Source of the DNA: a virus
Direction: 5' to 3' (one strand)
Length of the DNA stretch: 64,000 nucleotides
UHGV virus genome: UHGV-0370399
Part shown: positions 4,493-53,217 of the stretch, one piece after another
How the letters are laid out: the number at the start of each line of letters is the position of its first letter
Numbering within the stretch: position 1 is the first letter of the stretch
Made by a program: the position numbers and the translations under genes
The notes under the pieces: model-generated
The model's input: only the letters and a program-made list of their open reading frames with translations
Database searches by the model: none
Told to the model about the DNA's origin: nothing

Positions 4493-5066
4493 AAAAGGTC
4501 TAGTTAGAACCTTAGTGGATGTTATTGGTCACAGACTAGCTCGTGATAAAAATAATAGACCAAATGTAATTAGAGCTTACCCTTCTGATAACTCAAATGA
4601 CAAAGGTTTAAAACCTGACCAGCCATTTATTACCGTATATTGTCAAGATGCTGCAACACCTTATGGTTGGGTTCTTGATAAGTTTGTTGAGGATGATGTA
4701 GTTTGCTACAGAATTGCTTTTCAGATTCCAGTATTAATTACGGTGAATGGTAAAGGTGCTCACAGTATTATGCTTGAGCTTAAACAACGATTAGAGATGA
4801 GTTCAGTCAGGGATTTAATTCTTGAAGAGACAGGAGCTACAGTACTAGACACTGGAGCCATCCCAAATGACTACACTTATCTCAATACAGATTTCGAAAA
4901 TTCTGCGCCTCTTGTTGTAACTCTTGTAAAAAATTCAGTCCTGAAAGATGAACGTGGAAGTATTATTGAGCGTGTCATTGTTGATGGTGAGTTGGTTTAT
5001 GAAGAAGGACAAGAGCCACCAGAATATACTATCCATCTAGATGTAGACTCCAAAGGGGTAAAATAA
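4467..5066 (+). CDS. hypothetical tail completion / sheath terminator protein
   Basis: ATG 4467 with SD aggga; lies directly before the sheath-like gene. Confidence 0.3.
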   Translation: MQLETAELEKGLVRTLVDVIGHRLARDKNNRPNVIRAYPSDNSNDKGLKPDQPFITVYCQDAATPYGWVLDKFVEDDVVCYRIAFQIPVLITVNGKGAHSIMLELKQRLEMSSVRDLILEETGATVLDTGAIPNDYTYLNTDFENSAPLVVTLVKNSVLKDERGSIIERVIVDGELVYEEGQEPPEYTIHLDVDSKGVK

Positions 5067-6419
5067 ATGTGGAATCCAATTGTTAATGTAGATATTACAT
5101 TGAACACCGCAGGAACTACAAGAGAAGGTTTTGGTTTGCCACTATTCTTAGCTTCAACAGATAACTTTGAAGAAAGAGTCCGTGGTTACACTTCCTTAAC
5201 TGAAGTTGCTGAAGATTTCGATGAAAACTCTGCTGCATATAAGGCTGCTAAACAACTTTGGAGTCAGACTCCTAAAGTAACTCAGCTTTATATTGGTAGA
5301 CGTGCTATGCAGTACACTGTATCAATTCCTAATGCCGTTGCTGAAAGTACAGACTACTCAATTACTGTAGCTGCTGGCGGTGGAATTTCTCAACCATATC
5401 AGTATACAGCGCAAGCTGAAGACACTGCTGAAAACGTGTTGCAACAGTTTAAAACACAGATTGAAGCTGACCCAACAATCAAAGATAAGGTTTCTGTGAA
5501 CGTAACTGGTAGCAATGGCTCTGCCACAATGATTATTACCAAAGCTGGTGATAATGACTTTGTGAAAGTAACAACTACAGCACAGACTGTGTATATTGCA
5601 AGTACAACTGCCGATACAGCATCAACTGCTCTGGCAGCTATCGAAGCTTACTCTACTGACTGGTATTTCATTGCAGCAGAAGACAGAACTCAACAGTTTG
5701 TCTTAGCAATGGCTTCTGAGATTCAGGCTCGCAAGAAAATCTTCTTTACAGCTAACTCCGATGTAACAGCCCTGCAAGGTACAGAATTAGCCAGTGCAAA
5801 TGATGTTCCAGCACAGCTTGCTAAGAGTATGTACACTCGTACAGTTTGCTTGTGGCATCACGCAGCAGCAGAAGACTACCCAGAGATGGCATACATTGCT
5901 TATGGTGCTCCATATGATGCAGGTTCAATTGCTTGGGGTAATGCTCAGCTAACTGGTGTAGCAGCTTCTCTACAACCATCTAATCAGAGACCTCTGACAA
6001 GTATTCAGAAGTCTGCTTTAGATGTACGTCACTGTAACTTTATTGACCTTGATGGTGGTGTTCCAGTGGTTCGTAGAGGGATTACTTCTGGTGGGGAATG
6101 GATTGATATCGTCCGTGGCGTTGACTGGTTAGAATCAGACCTGAAAACTTCTCTGAGAGACTTGCTAATTAACCAGAAGGGTGGTAAGATTACTTATGAT
6201 GATACTGGTATTACCCGTATTCGTCAAGTCATTGAAACCTCTCTACAAAGAGCAGTCAACAGAAACTTCCTGTCATCTTACACAGTTAATGTTCCTAAAG
6301 CCTCTCAAGTTGCTTTGGCAGACAAGAAAGCTCGTATCCTGAAAGATGTTACCTTCGCAGGTATCTTAGCAGGGGCTATCTTGGATGTTGACTTGAAAGG
6401 TACAGTGGCTTACGAATAA
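5067..6419 (+). CDS. putative tail sheath protein
   Basis: 450 aa ORF immediately upstream of a 148 aa tube-like gene, chaperone pair and tape measure gene, the canonical contractile-tail order. Confidence 0.5.
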   Translation: MWNPIVNVDITLNTAGTTREGFGLPLFLASTDNFEERVRGYTSLTEVAEDFDENSAAYKAAKQLWSQTPKVTQLYIGRRAMQYTVSIPNAVAESTDYSITVAAGGGISQPYQYTAQAEDTAENVLQQFKTQIEADPTIKDKVSVNVTGSNGSATMIITKAGDNDFVKVTTTAQTVYIASTTADTASTALAAIEAYSTDWYFIAAEDRTQQFVLAMASEIQARKKIFFTANSDVTALQGTELASANDVPAQLAKSMYTRTVCLWHHAAAEDYPEMAYIAYGAPYDAGSIAWGNAQLTGVAASLQPSNQRPLTSIQKSALDVRHCNFIDLDGGVPVVRRGITSGGEWIDIVRGVDWLESDLKTSLRDLLINQKGGKITYDDTGITRIRQVIETSLQRAVNRNFLSSYTVNVPKASQVALADKKARILKDVTFAGILAGAILDVDLKGTVAYE

Positions 6420-6434
6420 TAGAGGTAAATTGGA

Positions 6435-6881
6435 ATGGCTATGTATCAGCAATATTCCCCTAAAGACGTTGTATGTAGCTGGAATGGTATTGCCATTGAA
6501 GGCTTTGCCCCAGATTCATTCTTGCGTCTACAGAGAACATCACCGCTTGTGACACCAGTTGTTGGTGCAGGTGGTCAAGTTGCTCTGACAAGAAATGCAG
6601 ACAAGACAGGTACTATTGAGATTGAGTTAATGCAGACTTCTCTCTCTAACCAGATGCTTTCTGCAATTCAAGCTAAACAAGACAATATGGAACTTGAAGA
6701 AGATATCTCTTCTAACTTCGTAATCTACGACCCATCAGGCTCTGTTCTGGCAACTGGTATTAATGCTTGGTTGCAGGAATTACCACAGATTGAACTTGGT
6801 CGTGACCAGAACTCTAAAACTTGGATTTTTGGTTGTGAGAAGCTAGACTACACTTCTACAATTCCAGCGTCAAGTGTTTAA
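6435..6881 (+). CDS. putative tail tube protein
   Basis: 148 aa ORF after the sheath-like gene; followed by a strong intrinsic terminator. Confidence 0.5.
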   Translation: MAMYQQYSPKDVVCSWNGIAIEGFAPDSFLRLQRTSPLVTPVVGAGGQVALTRNADKTGTIEIELMQTSLSNQMLSAIQAKQDNMELEEDISSNFVIYDPSGSVLATGINAWLQELPQIELGRDQNSKTWIFGCEKLDYTSTIPASSV

Positions 6882-6893
6882 TAAATCCTATAA

Positions 6894-6925
6894 GGGGGAG
6901 ACTTTAAAAGGTCTTCCCCTTTTTT
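6894..6925 (+). terminator. intrinsic terminator after the tail tube gene
   Basis: GGGGGAGAC ... GTCTTCCCC stem (one G-U) with 8 nt loop, followed by TTTTTT. Confidence 0.8.
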
Positions 6926-6954
6926 GTTTCTTTTAAAAGTATTAAGGAATCACA

Positions 6955-7353
6955 ATGAAAACAGAATCTAGAGTAATTAATGGTAAGAAAGTAAATATCG
7001 TTCTGCTTGGGGCAAGAGATGGTATTAAGATGTCTATGAAGTTGGGTAAAATTGTTGTTCCAACTTTTGCACAGATGCTGTCAAGTCTGACTGACAAGGG
7101 TAAGAAAGAAGCTCCAATGGTTCCATTTAAAGAACTTGTTGAAGCTTGTTTTGACAGAATTGAAGAAATTAACCTTGAAGAAATGGCTACCCTGTTATTT
7201 CAAGGAGCAACTGTTGATGACTTCCCACTTAATATTGATACATACTTCCAAGCAAACTATGGTGAATTTATTGATTACTTAGCATTTGCGCTGGAGGCAA
7301 ACTTCGGAAGTTTTTTCGAAGCAAGCATTTTCAAAAGCCTAACTTCTCAGTAA
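6955..7353 (+). CDS. tail assembly chaperone (upstream frame)
   Basis: 132 aa acidic ORF directly upstream of the tape measure gene; SD aaggaa. Confidence 0.5.
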   Translation: MKTESRVINGKKVNIVLLGARDGIKMSMKLGKIVVPTFAQMLSSLTDKGKKEAPMVPFKELVEACFDRIEEINLEEMATLLFQGATVDDFPLNIDTYFQANYGEFIDYLAFALEANFGSFFEASIFKSLTSQ

Positions 7354-7594
7354 ACATGGGTAACACTCTACAGACACCACTGACTGATGCTGCTGTAGAG
7401 GCAACCTATGAAGAAGCAGACGAGATGAAATTTGTGCTTGCTATTTATGGTATGGAAGGGTGTAAAGAAACACTTGACCAACTCTTTGCTATGACATTCT
7501 CTGATTTATTATCATTGAGACAATTTCTTGAAATTCAGAGGTCGTATAAAGAGGAAATTGCTTACAACGAACTTAGAAGAGCAGGAAAAATGTA

Positions 7595-7595
<1 letters not shown>
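7275..7595 (+). CDS. tail assembly chaperone -1 frame extension (expressed as fusion by programmed frameshift)
   Basis: The -1 frame is open from 7275 to 7595 and overlaps the 3' end of 6955-7353; slippery heptamer T TTT TTC at 7311-7317 in the zero frame; the ATG at 7356 has no SD. Confidence 0.45.
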
Positions 7596-15611
<8,016 letters not shown>

Positions 15612-35318: not shown

Positions 35319-36365
35319 ATGGAGAAGTACACATTAACAAAACTTCCCGATTCAGTTACACATGTTTTTATTGACTCTGACAGTATTGCCTATAAAGGCG
35401 CTTGTGTAGTTGAGAAAGCAAAATATAAATATGTCAATAAACTCACAGCAGAAGAATCTGAATCATTTGATAATGCAAAAGATGCTGCAAGATGGTTAGC
35501 AGACCAGAGAATCCTTGTGGAAGAGCTTGGCCTGACATTTGATGAAGATGAATGGGAAAGACAGACTTGGAAAGAAGCTAAGAGTGAAAAAGAAGCTATC
35601 ATGGCTACTCAACAGGTGCTTCAGGAATGGCTTAAGATTGTTGGTAAAGAGAGAACTTGGGTAGGTTATTTAACAGAGAAAGGTGTGCATAAACATAAAG
35701 ACATTAAAGGTCTTGAGCACCAATATCAAGGTAACCGCAAAGATGCTGTCACACCAACACACTTAGTTGCTTGTCGTGAGTATCTTCTGTCAAGACCAGA
35801 GTTTAAATTGATTCTTGATGGATTTGAAGCTGACTCTATCGTTATCGCTAAAGCTGAAAAGATGGGAAAAAAGGCTGCCTTAATGAGTATTGATAAAGAC
35901 CTTCGCCAAGCTGAAGGTACTTACTGCATTGATATGACCTATGAAAAATCACCTTTAATTTTCATTGCTGATAACAACGTTGGTGAAATTTGGGATTGTC
36001 CAATAAAATCGACACCAAAAGCTAAGAAGACAGTTGGTGTAGGTTTTAAATTTCTTTGTTATCAAGCTGTGGCTGGTGATAATGCGGATAATTACTTTGG
36101 TTTAAAGGGTGTTGGCAAAGCTGCTGTGATGAAGGCTCTTGAAGGGAAAACAACTTACAAAGAGTGTCTTGATGCAATTTACGAGCTATATGCTAAGAAA
36201 GACTCCTACACTTATGTATCATGGGATGGTCAAACAATTACCAGAACACCTTTAGAATTAATGCAGCAACACTTTTTCTTAGCTTATCAGGAAAGAAATA
36301 AAAAAGACGATTTTACTTTTGATAAGTATGGGTGGACACCAAATGTTAACTCAACAAACTCTTAA
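35319..36365 (+). CDS. 5'-3' exonuclease / flap endonuclease
   Basis: N-terminal VFIDSDSIAY PIN-like motif and GDNADNYFGLKGVGKAA helix-3-turn-helix motif typical of the FEN / Pol I 5' exonuclease family. Confidence 0.85.
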   Translation: MEKYTLTKLPDSVTHVFIDSDSIAYKGACVVEKAKYKYVNKLTAEESESFDNAKDAARWLADQRILVEELGLTFDEDEWERQTWKEAKSEKEAIMATQQVLQEWLKIVGKERTWVGYLTEKGVHKHKDIKGLEHQYQGNRKDAVTPTHLVACREYLLSRPEFKLILDGFEADSIVIAKAEKMGKKAALMSIDKDLRQAEGTYCIDMTYEKSPLIFIADNNVGEIWDCPIKSTPKAKKTVGVGFKFLCYQAVAGDNADNYFGLKGVGKAAVMKALEGKTTYKECLDAIYELYAKKDSYTYVSWDGQTITRTPLELMQQHFFLAYQERNKKDDFTFDKYGWTPNVNSTNS

Positions 36366-52668: not shown

Positions 52669-53217
52669 ATGAAGAAATTGATTCTAGGTTTGTGCTTAAT
52701 GTTTACAGCACACTTATCTTATGCAGTTGACTGCCCAGAGCTATCAATTAGCCAAAAAGTAAACATGTTAAAAGCTTACCAGTATGGTGAGAATAACATG
52801 GGTAAAGGTTGGGGTATCACTCTAGCTGCTATAGCCTTACAAGAGTCAGAGTTAGGTCTGAAGGTAGAGAATAAAAAGACCCATGACTATGGTATCTTCC
52901 AGAATCACTTGAAGACTGTTGTAAAGCGTAACAAAATTAGTCCTAATGTGGCTAAAAAGAAACTCTTAAAAGACTTTGACTATGCTGCGAAGGAAACTCA
53001 CAAAGAGCTTGAGTTTTGGACAAAGGTGCATGGTCAGCCAAAGTCAAAGAAGACTTTACAAAAAGTTTTAGCATCATATAATGCTGGGTATTCGTACAGA
53101 ATCCCTAAAGCTAAGAAATATTCTCAAGATGTCTATAACAACATGAAAGTTATTGCTCAATGTGAATTTGCAACAAACATTTCTAAGGTAAACCATGAAA
53201 AAATTAAAAAAGTCTGA
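52669..53217 (+). CDS. signal-peptide lytic transglycosylase (SLT domain), endolysin candidate
   Basis: N-terminal MKKLILGLCLMFTAHLSYA signal; catalytic-region motifs QESE, YGIFQ and AYNAGY match the SLT family. Confidence 0.55.
   Translation: MKKLILGLCLMFTAHLSYAVDCPELSISQKVNMLKAYQYGENNMGKGWGITLAAIALQESELGLKVENKKTHDYGIFQNHLKTVVKRNKISPNVAKKKLLKDFDYAAKETHKELEFWTKVHGQPKSKKTLQKVLASYNAGYSYRIPKAKKYSQDVYNNMKVIAQCEFATNISKVNHEKIKKV

What the first reader, a model, noticed from the sequence alone, without database searches (positions are those of the whole stretch)
7275..7595. Programmed -1 frameshift site in the tail assembly chaperone gene
Seen in sequence: ORF 6955-7353 ends 242 nt before the tape measure gene, and the -1 frame is open from 7275 to 7595, overlapping the last 79 nt of the upstream ORF. 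Within the overlap the zero-frame sequence GGA AGT TTT TTC GAA contains the slippery heptamer T TTT TTC (7311-7317). The ATG at 7356 used by the ORF track has no Shine-Dalgarno sequence. Established knowledge: tailed phages almost universally make a long and a short chaperone from two overlapping ORFs upstream of the tape measure gene by -1 frameshifting. Inference: the 79 aa ORF is the frameshift extension, not an independent gene.
Basis: partly seen in the sequence, partly recalled or inferred. Interest (0 to 1): 0.45.

Follow-up and report, generated by a model that had tools for sequence, protein, structure and literature searches.

The report
Tail chaperone frameshift in Felix O1-like phage
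This is the standard "slip back one base" signal that long-tailed phages use to make a rare long form of their tail assembly chaperone; it is very probably real here, but ordinary and already predicted for this phage family.

Summary
The window is a Felix O1-like myophage (Felixounavirus, 98.8% identical to phage ECML-1). ORF 6955-7353 is a Pfam Phage_TAC_15 tail assembly chaperone. The -1 frame is open over 7275-7595. T_TTT_TTC lies in the correct phase at 7311-7317. The predicted fusion is 213 aa, and the tape measure gene starts at 7595.

In this genome alone the heptamer is not statistically remarkable (P about 0.1-0.2). Comparison settles it:
- All 97 related loci, in 19 clusters below 50% identity and from 35 to 65% GC, keep T_TTT_TT[C/T] in phase, with a -1 extension of 78-126 codons.
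- In most lineages the -1 ORF has no start codon for 37-67 codons.
- Suppression of synonymous change begins exactly at the heptamer.

No downstream RNA structure is conserved. An SD-like GGAGG lies 13 nt upstream, and its Glu codon GAG is enriched across lineages (P = 0.003).

This is prior art. Phage Moogle is annotated with the frameshift (2015), and a 2025 paper reports the same motif in 231 Andersonviridae, the family that includes Felixounavirus. No experimental proof was found. Most Felixounavirus records, including RefSeq Felix O1, still annotate two separate genes.

The parts
6955..7353 (+). Short tail assembly chaperone (TAC-N, gpG-like), 132 aa, the zero-frame product
   Evidence: ORF list. 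Pfam PF21822 Phage_TAC_15, E = 1.7e-19, 71 bits against a cut-off of 22. PHROG 1613 tail assembly chaperone, E = 2.9e-48.
7293..7297 (+). SD-like GGAGG, 13 nt upstream of the heptamer. Candidate 5' stimulator of the frameshift (inferred).
   Evidence: Sequence. GAGG or GGAGG occurs at the same spacing in most lineages. The Glu codon is GAG in 14 of 19 clusters against 7.9 expected, P = 0.003. Sharma et al. 2014 treat SD-like motifs 6-17 nt upstream as stimulatory.
7311..7317 (+). Slippery heptamer T_TTT_TTC (X_XXY_YYZ); both tRNA-Phe can re-pair in the -1 frame
   Evidence: Phase verified. Conserved in all 97 related loci and 19 clusters. UUUUUUC gave 0.12%, 0.89% and 7.6% frameshifting in E. 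coli with no stimulator, the IS911 stimulators and the IS3 pseudoknot (PMC4066793 supplement).
7275..7353 (+). 79-nt overlap in which both the zero frame and the -1 frame are open
7317..7595 (+). -1 frame extension (T part): 92 codons plus TAA at 7593-7595. The fusion 6955..7317 + 7317..7595 is 213 aa.
   Evidence: Translation. PHROG 4963 tail assembly chaperone, E = 2.8e-55. Conserved at 26-81% identity across Ounavirinae and neighbouring lineages.
7356..7358 (+). ATG used by gene callers for the '79-aa ORF'. No SD, lineage-specific, probably not the main route to the T part.
   Evidence: No SD. Absent in Kolesnikvirus, L040 and most distant lineages. ATA in L015.
7595..9823 (+). Tape measure protein gene (742 aa). 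Its ATG overlaps the stop of the T part (TAATG).
   Evidence: Pfam PF20155 TMP_3, E = 2e-17. PHROG 4036. Sequence.
5067..6881 (+). Context: tail sheath gene (5067-6419) and tail tube gene (6435-6881), upstream of the chaperone
   Evidence: PHROG 205 tail sheath, E = 1.6e-123. Pfam KPP10_Orf10 and PHROG 280 for the tube.

Best explanation

Most ribosomes translate 6955-7353 and release the 132-aa chaperone. A small fraction slips back one base while the two tRNA-Phe occupy UUU (P site) and UUC (A site) of U_UUU_UUC at 7311-7317. Both re-pair with UUU. Reading then continues in the -1 frame from C7317 (CGA = Arg) to TAA at 7593-7595. The product is a 213-aa protein with the sequence ...GSFF-RSKHFQKP..., in which the chaperone domain carries a C-terminal T part.

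By analogy with lambda gpG and gpGT, the abundant short form coats the tape measure protein. The rare long form additionally recruits the tail tube protein, and the fixed ratio between them is set by the frameshift rate.

Shown here: the sequence anatomy, the gene identities, and very deep conservation of the site, its phase and the -1 ORF.

Inferred: that slippage really occurs; that its rate is about 1% or less (my own estimate from the reporter values for this heptamer, 0.12% alone and 0.89% with moderate stimulators); that the GGAGG 13 nt upstream stimulates it; and the roles of the two proteins.
For: - Anatomy is exact.
- The upstream ORF is a Pfam Phage_TAC_15 chaperone and the downstream gene is a tape measure.
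- The heptamer, its phase and the -1 ORF are conserved in Suspvirus, Mooglevirus, Kolesnikvirus, Yersinia phage P778, Pectobacterium phage Arno162 and the Vequintavirinae CR3 and Av-05.
- The same holds in 50 more distant IMG/VR loci. Of these, 46 have TTTTTTC and 4 have TTTTTTT. The preceding codon is AGT, TCT or TGT, always ending in T. The -1 extension is 78-125 codons in these 50 loci.
- These relatives fall into 19 clusters below 50% identity, spanning 35-65% GC. P(all TTT at the first Phe codon) = 2e-8.
- A blastn search against distant Erwinia phages aligns only window positions 7300-7340, at 92.7% identity.
- The same-codon fraction among identical residues rises from 0.44-0.49 just upstream to 0.87-0.93 at and after the heptamer.
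- No start codon is available in the -1 ORF in most lineages, and L015 has ATA at the Felixounavirus ATG.
- U_UU.C is the second most shift-prone tetramer in E. coli, and UUUUUUC gave 0.12%, 0.89% and 7.6% without stimulator, with the IS911 stimulators and with the IS3 pseudoknot (PMC4066793).
- Moogle carries a joined CDS 'with translational frameshift'.
- PMC12846349 reports the same motif in 231 Andersonviridae, the family that holds Felixounavirus.
Against: - No protein-level evidence was found, and no experiment on this site turned up in the literature searches.
- The heptamer alone is weak in E. coli reporters, 0.12% against a background near 0.05%.
- No downstream stimulatory structure is present in the window or conserved among Ounavirinae.
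- Within this genome alone the heptamer is not significant.
- In Felixounavirus an ATG lies 2 nt after the stop of the upstream ORF, so coupled reinitiation could also yield a free T peptide.
- The distant loci were collected with a pattern that required ...[SC]FF. Relatives that lost the FF motif were therefore not sampled.
Confidence: 0.9

Rival explanations
1. The 79-aa ORF is an independent gene. It would be translated from ATG 7356 by termination-reinitiation, coupled to the upstream chaperone ORF whose stop lies 2 nt away. On this reading the heptamer is simply the codons for a conserved Phe-Phe.
For: ATG 7356 is present in 33 of the 39 loci of the Felixounavirus/Suspvirus/Mooglevirus cluster. 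Five Moogle-type loci have an ATG at codon 19-20 instead, and L015 has lost it. It sits 2 nt after TAA 7351-7353. Nearly all Felixounavirus records, including RefSeq Felix O1, annotate two separate CDS. Phe-Phe is invariant at protein level.
Against: There is no SD. In Kolesnikvirus, L040 and most distant lineages no ATG, GTG or TTG exists upstream of the conserved T part, yet the T part is conserved and stays linked stop-free to the heptamer. L015 has ATA. Protein conservation of Phe-Phe does not explain why three wobble positions are fixed in 19 clusters with very different codon usage. It also does not explain why synonymous suppression begins at the heptamer, 45 nt before the ATG. phiEa104 annotators could call only a 37-aa fragment.
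Confidence: 0.05
2. The long form arises by transcriptional slippage. RNA polymerase would add one extra U in the T6 run, possibly helped by the small hairpin at 7291-7307 just upstream. Normal translation of that mRNA would then give the same 213-aa protein.
For: The product would be identical in sequence to the frameshift product. The scan flags 7291-7307 plus the T-run as terminator-like. Phage CL1 (T7 in its DNA) and four distant loci in three clusters (TTTTTTT) show that run length varies.
Against: Productive bacterial transcriptional slippage is described for runs of about 9 A or T (PMC5009743); this run has 6. Z is C in 16 of 19 clusters, which keeps the run short. The upstream hairpin is not conserved across lineages, mean z = -0.56. 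The conserved upstream feature is an SD-like GAGG, which acts on ribosomes.
Confidence: 0.04
3. Chance: the heptamer and the open -1 frame are coincidental and no long form is made.
For: Single-genome statistics are weak, at 0.19 and 0.12.
Against: Conservation across 97 loci and 19 clusters, a conserved T part and the synonymous-site signature.
Confidence: 0.01

Closest known systems
Phage lambda gpG/gpGT programmed -1 frameshift (Levin, Hendrix & Casjens 1993; Xu, Hendrix & Duda 2004; summarised in PMC5009743)
   Same: Two overlapping ORFs lie between the major tail gene and the tape measure gene, with the downstream ORF in the -1 frame. [quoted passage not shown] The expected result is a low-level fusion. 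No downstream structure is evident.
   Different: The heptamer is U_UUU_UUC (tRNA-Phe) rather than G_GGA_AAG (tRNA-Lys). The phage has a contractile tail. The chaperone belongs to a different Pfam family (Phage_TAC_15). An SD-like GGAGG lies 13 nt upstream. The efficiency has not been measured.
[quoted passage not shown]
   Same: It is the homologous gene pair (70% fusion identity) with the same TTTTTTC heptamer in the same phase and the same flanking sequence. It is annotated as a joined CDS.
   Different: It belongs to a different genus. The upstream ORF is 3 codons longer, and the nearest -1 frame ATG lies at a different position.
-1 PRF predicted for the TAC locus of Vandenendeviridae (Pakpunavirus phage Adele) and Andersonviridae (PMC12846349, 2025)
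   Same: It makes the same claim for the family that contains Felixounavirus: an invariant GTTTTT motif near the 3' end of TAC-N and an uninterrupted -1 frame.
   Different: That work is also purely computational. The section read does not name the phased heptamer or mention an SD-like element. It did not cover the metagenomic lineages or the Vequintavirinae loci examined here.
E. coli dnaX and IS911 -1 frameshift cassettes
   Same: A heptamer preceded by an SD-like stimulator within the 6-17 nt range.
   Different: Those cassettes also use a downstream hairpin or three-way junction and reach far higher efficiency. No such structure was found here.

Membership tests
Lambda G/GT-type tail assembly chaperone with programmed -1 frameshift | Gene pair located between the major tail (tube) gene and the tape measure gene | tested here: met
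   Order is sheath 5067-6419, tube 6435-6881, chaperone 6955-7353, -1 ORF to 7595, tape measure 7595-9823.
Lambda G/GT-type tail assembly chaperone with programmed -1 frameshift | Second ORF in the -1 frame, overlapping the 3' end of the first | tested here: met
   79-nt overlap, 7275-7353.
Lambda G/GT-type tail assembly chaperone with programmed -1 frameshift | Correctly phased slippery sequence within the overlap | tested here: met
   T_TTT_TTC at 7311-7317; it is the only in-phase heptamer in the ORF.
Lambda G/GT-type tail assembly chaperone with programmed -1 frameshift | Slippery site and frame relation conserved among diverged relatives | tested here: met
   97 loci in 19 clusters below 50% identity all have T_TTT_TT[C/T] with a -1 extension of 78-126 codons. 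Phage CL1 has T7, which places the same ORF in frame.
Lambda G/GT-type tail assembly chaperone with programmed -1 frameshift | Downstream ORF lacks its own translation start signals | tested here: met
   No SD before ATG 7356. No start codon at all in the corresponding region of most lineages. Reinitiation at ATG 7356 in Felixounavirus itself is not excluded.
Lambda G/GT-type tail assembly chaperone with programmed -1 frameshift | Fusion protein made at a low, fixed ratio to the short protein | not testable with these tools
   Needs mass spectrometry, western blot or a reporter assay. No published data were found.
Lambda G/GT-type tail assembly chaperone with programmed -1 frameshift | Short form binds the tape measure; T part binds the tail tube protein | not testable with these tools
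   Inferred from lambda (PMC5009743).
Pfam PF21822 Phage_TAC_15 | Score above the family's gathering cut-off | tested here: met
   71 bits against a cut-off of 22, E = 1.7e-19, residues 9-124. All 92 database homologues carry PF21822.
SD-stimulated -1 frameshift cassette (dnaX / IS911 type) | SD-like sequence 6-17 nt upstream of the heptamer | tested here: met
   GGAGG at 7293-7297 with a 13-nt spacer. GAG is enriched at that codon, 14 of 19 clusters, P = 0.003. Its function is untested.
SD-stimulated -1 frameshift cassette (dnaX / IS911 type) | Stable downstream hairpin or pseudoknot 5-9 nt after the heptamer | tested here: not met
   Minimum free energy -2.3 to -3.4 kcal/mol with z > 0 for the first 43-63 nt. 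RNAalifold predicts 0 pairs. Window z = +0.31.
Programmed transcriptional slippage | Homopolymer run of about 9 or more A or T | tested here: not met
   The run is T6. The threshold is taken from PMC5009743.

The most novel reading that the evidence does not exclude
The U6C heptamer together with a GAGG/GGAGG fixed 13 nt upstream would be a self-sufficient frameshift cassette that needs no RNA structure. It would be shared by a very broad set of myophage Phage_TAC_15 chaperones: Andersonviridae, Vequintavirinae and many uncultured lineages from 35 to 65% GC. The SD-like element, rather than any downstream fold, would set the short:long ratio. Alternatively, the T-run would work partly through RNA polymerase slippage. 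Neither detail appears in the prior work I could read.
Probability: 0.25. Interest if true: 0.35.

Novelty: already known. Interest (0 to 1): 0.18.

Why it matters
The main value is for annotation. RefSeq Felix O1 and nearly all of the roughly 250 Felixounavirus records list two separate 'tail assembly chaperone' or 'hypothetical' genes instead of a short product plus a joined 213-aa product. In Kolesnikvirus the T part is left unannotated or truncated.

The site is also a clean, deeply conserved natural example of a U_UUU_UUC shift site in enterobacterial phages, with a candidate SD-like stimulator and no downstream structure. That makes it a convenient test case for how low-efficiency frameshifts are tuned. 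It does not change what is understood about tail assembly.

Tried and rejected
- **Downstream stimulatory hairpin or pseudoknot.** Folding of 7318-7360, 7318-7380 and 7318-7420, and of the equivalent segments in five relatives, found nothing better than shuffles near the site. RNAalifold on 10 Ounavirinae lineages predicted 0 pairs. A hairpin at about 7355-7411 (-24.5 kcal/mol, z = -1.6) lies 38 nt downstream, too far to act, and is not supported by the alignment.
- **Upstream hairpin plus T-run as a pause or terminator.** The scan flags it, but it is not conserved.
- **Other shift sites in the overlap.** There are none in phase.
- **Homology of the T part with the T parts of deep lineages.** hhalign gives 12% and 6.5% probability, so this is not demonstrated.
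- **Solved structures.** No relative was found for the fusion protein; the best hit has E = 0.61.
- **Database search for annotated fused proteins.** All 92 hits are short forms of 124-136 aa.
- **Experimental evidence in the literature.** Searches found none. Christie 2002 (P2) and Vladimirov 2022 (T4-like) are not in the paper library.
- **Structure prediction of the T part.** Not run, because it would not bear on the frameshift question.

Full report
**What the window is.** A megablast search with 5000-10000 finds 298 phage records. The best is Escherichia phage ECML-1 at 98.8% identity, and nearly all hits are Felixounavirus. The window is therefore a Felix O1-like myophage. The genus now sits in Ounavirinae, family Andersonviridae.

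**Checking the observation.** Reading 6800-7800 and translating all frames confirms every detail.
- ORF 6955-7353 is 132 aa and ends at TAA 7351-7353.
- The -1 frame has TGA at 7272-7274 and is open from 7275 to TAA at 7593-7595. The overlap is 79 nt.
- The zero-frame codons GGA AGT TTT TTC GAA start at 7306. T_TTT_TTC at 7311-7317 is therefore a correctly phased X_XXY_YYZ heptamer.
- The fusion is 121 + 92 = 213 aa.
- The tape measure ORF starts at 7595, and its ATG overlaps the -1 ORF stop (TAATG).
- No GGAG, GAGG or AGGA precedes ATG 7356.

**Gene identities.**

| Coordinates | Assignment | Evidence |
|---|---|---|
| 5067-6419 | Tail sheath | PHROG 205 |
| 6435-6881 | Tail tube | Pfam KPP10_Orf10, PHROG 280 |
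| 6955-7353 | Tail assembly chaperone | Pfam PF21822 Phage_TAC_15, E = 1.7e-19, 71 bits vs cut-off 22; PHROG 1613 |
| 7356-7595 | Tail assembly chaperone | PHROG 4963 |
| 7595-9823 | Tape measure | PF20155, PHROG 4036 |

The layout is the canonical one.

**Chance within one genome.** The heptamer is not impressive by itself. Codon shuffling puts some in-phase heptamer in the last 82 nt in 19% of trials. Resampling synonymous codons for the actual protein gives TTTTTTC in 12% of trials. The case rests on comparison.

**Comparison, close relatives.**
- The same heptamer, phase and -1 ORF occur in Suspvirus, Mooglevirus, Kolesnikvirus (phiEa21-4), Yersinia phage P778 and Pectobacterium phage Arno162.
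- They also occur in the Vequintavirinae CR3 and Av-05, whose chaperones are only 27% identical to this one.
- A sensitive blastn search against the Erwinia phages aligns only window positions 7300-7340, at 92.7% identity. The rest of the gene has diverged beyond DNA detection.

**Comparison, distant relatives.**
- A scan of IMG/VR with a chaperone alignment returned 80 loci. The pattern used was [LV]ExN[FY][GSK][SC]FF. Phe-Phe is therefore present by ascertainment, but the codons are free.
- Among the 50 loci outside the close group, 46 have TTTTTTC and 4 have TTTTTTT. The preceding Ser or Cys codon is AGT, TCT or TGT, always ending in T. The -1 frame runs on for 78-125 codons, while the +1 frame is usually short.
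- All 97 loci fall into 19 clusters at 50% identity, with GC from 0.35 to 0.65.
- By local codon usage, the probability that all 19 use TTT at the first Phe codon is 2e-8.

**Can the T part start on its own?**
- In the window the nearest start is ATG 7356, which is codon 15 after the heptamer and has no SD.
- In Kolesnikvirus the first ATG, GTG or TTG in the -1 ORF is at codon 57 of 96. In L040 it is at codon 39. In most deep lineages it is at codons 37-67.
- Annotators of phiEa21-4 left the region blank, and those of phiEa104 called only a 37-aa fragment.
- One near-identical Felixounavirus contig, L015, has ATA instead of the ATG.
- The T part itself is conserved at 26-81% identity across eight lineages.

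The T part therefore depends on ribosomes arriving from the upstream ORF. Because ATG 7356 lies 2 nt after the stop of that ORF, some extra reinitiation in Felixounavirus cannot be excluded.

**Where dual coding starts.** I built a codon alignment of the chaperone gene from eight Ounavirinae and neighbouring lineages. The fraction of identical codons among identical residues is 0.3-0.6 over most of the gene, rising to about 0.7 near 7250-7270. It is 0.44-0.49 just upstream of the heptamer (7285-7294), even though protein identity there is 0.78-0.85. It jumps to 0.87-0.93 in windows centred on 7312-7321. That is the signature expected if the second frame is read from the heptamer onwards.

**Mechanism and stimulators.**
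- In E. coli, U_UU.C is the second most shift-prone tetramer. UUUUUUC gives 0.12% without a stimulator, 0.89% with the IS911 stimulators and 7.6% with the IS3 pseudoknot (PMC4066793).
- I found no downstream structure in the window or conserved among Ounavirinae. Several distant lineages do have stable downstream folds, with z below -2.4.
- Upstream, GGAGG at 7293-7297 lies 13 nt before the heptamer, inside the 6-17 nt range used for SD-like stimulators. GAGG or GGAGG at this exact spacing recurs in most lineages.
- The Glu codon concerned is GAG in 14 of 19 clusters against 7.9 expected, P = 0.003, treating clusters as independent. This suggests a dnaX/IS911-like 5' stimulator but does not prove one.
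- A small hairpin at 7291-7307 before the T-run is flagged as terminator-like but is not conserved.

**Rivals.**
- Independent initiation or reinitiation as the only route is contradicted by the lineages that lack a start codon, by L015, by the fixed wobble positions and by the onset of synonymous suppression 45 nt before the ATG.
- Transcriptional slippage would give the same protein. However, productive bacterial cases use runs of about 9 (PMC5009743), the run here is T6, and selection keeps a C after it in 16 of 19 clusters.
- Chance is excluded by the comparative data.

**What is already known.**
- Low-level G-T frameshifting is described as widely conserved in long-tailed dsDNA phages (PMC5009743).
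- A 2025 paper argues for -1 PRF in the TAC locus of Vandenendeviridae. It reports the same invariant GTTTTT motif near the 3' end of TAC-N in 231 Andersonviridae (PMC12846349).
- Felix O1 RefSeq and the other Felixounavirus records I opened still list two separate CDS.
- All 92 database homologues are short forms.
- I found no experimental test.

**Verdict.** The feature is an ordinary, already predicted member of a known class. The modest additions from this work are:
- how deep the U6C conservation goes;
- the start-codon and synonymous-site evidence;
- the candidate SD-like stimulator;
- the absence of a downstream structure.

Noticed in passing
window 6892-6921 (+ T-run to about 6931): A strong intrinsic-terminator-like hairpin (13 pairs, 6 G-C) followed by TTTTTGTTT lies between the tail tube gene and the chaperone gene. 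It could lower transcription of the chaperone and tape measure genes relative to the sheath and tube genes. Some related records annotate a terminator in this region.
   Followed up: partly
window 7593-7597: The stop of the -1 ORF (TAA 7593-7595) overlaps the tape measure start (ATG 7595-7597) as TAATG. An AGGA lies 8 nt upstream of that ATG.
   Followed up: no
L007 (Escherichia phage CL1, OK040806.1), locus 601-1242: This Felixounavirus record has T7 instead of T6 at the slip site. The chaperone and the T part therefore form one in-frame 213-aa ORF, identical in junction to the predicted frameshift product. It is either a homopolymer sequencing error or a mutant that makes only the long form.
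   Followed up: partly
L015 (IMGVR_UViG_3300045988_004167), about locus 1902-1904: A Felixounavirus contig whose chaperone protein is 100% identical to the window's has ATA where the window has ATG 7356. The supposed start of the 79-aa ORF is gone while the frame stays open.
   Followed up: partly
window 7882-7888, 35867-35873, 53206-53212: In-phase A_AAA_AAG heptamers, the most shift-prone motif in E. coli, occur in the tape measure gene and in two other long ORFs. The -1 frame ends after 7, 8 and 3 codons, so any slippage would only truncate the product. Conservation was not checked.
   Followed up: no
window 7291-7307: A weak hairpin, CTGGAG/CTTCGG, lies directly before the T-run and is flagged terminator-like by the scan. 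It overlaps the SD-like GGAGG. It is not conserved in other lineages.
   Followed up: yes
window 7355-7411: A predicted hairpin (-24.5 kcal/mol for 7318-7420, z = -1.6) pairs the ATG 7356 region (CAUGGGU) with ACCUAUG. It might mask that start codon. RNAalifold does not support it across lineages.
   Followed up: partly
GU169904.1 (Staphylococcus phage SA1), 74360-75000: A record labelled as a Staphylococcus phage holds DNA 97% identical to this Felix O1-like chaperone locus. This suggests a chimeric or contaminated assembly.
   Followed up: no
P0086 (Buttiauxella noackiae, contig of 1.88 Mb): A 126-aa Phage_TAC_15 homologue, 46% identical, sits on a chromosome-sized bacterial contig. A relative of this tail module may therefore exist as a prophage or tailocin.
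   Followed up: no
L061, L070, L075, L073, L069, L067 (5-64 nt after their heptamers): Several distant lineages have significantly stable downstream RNA folds (z from -2.4 to -4.6), unlike the Felix O1 group. The family may use different stimulators in different branches.
   Followed up: partly
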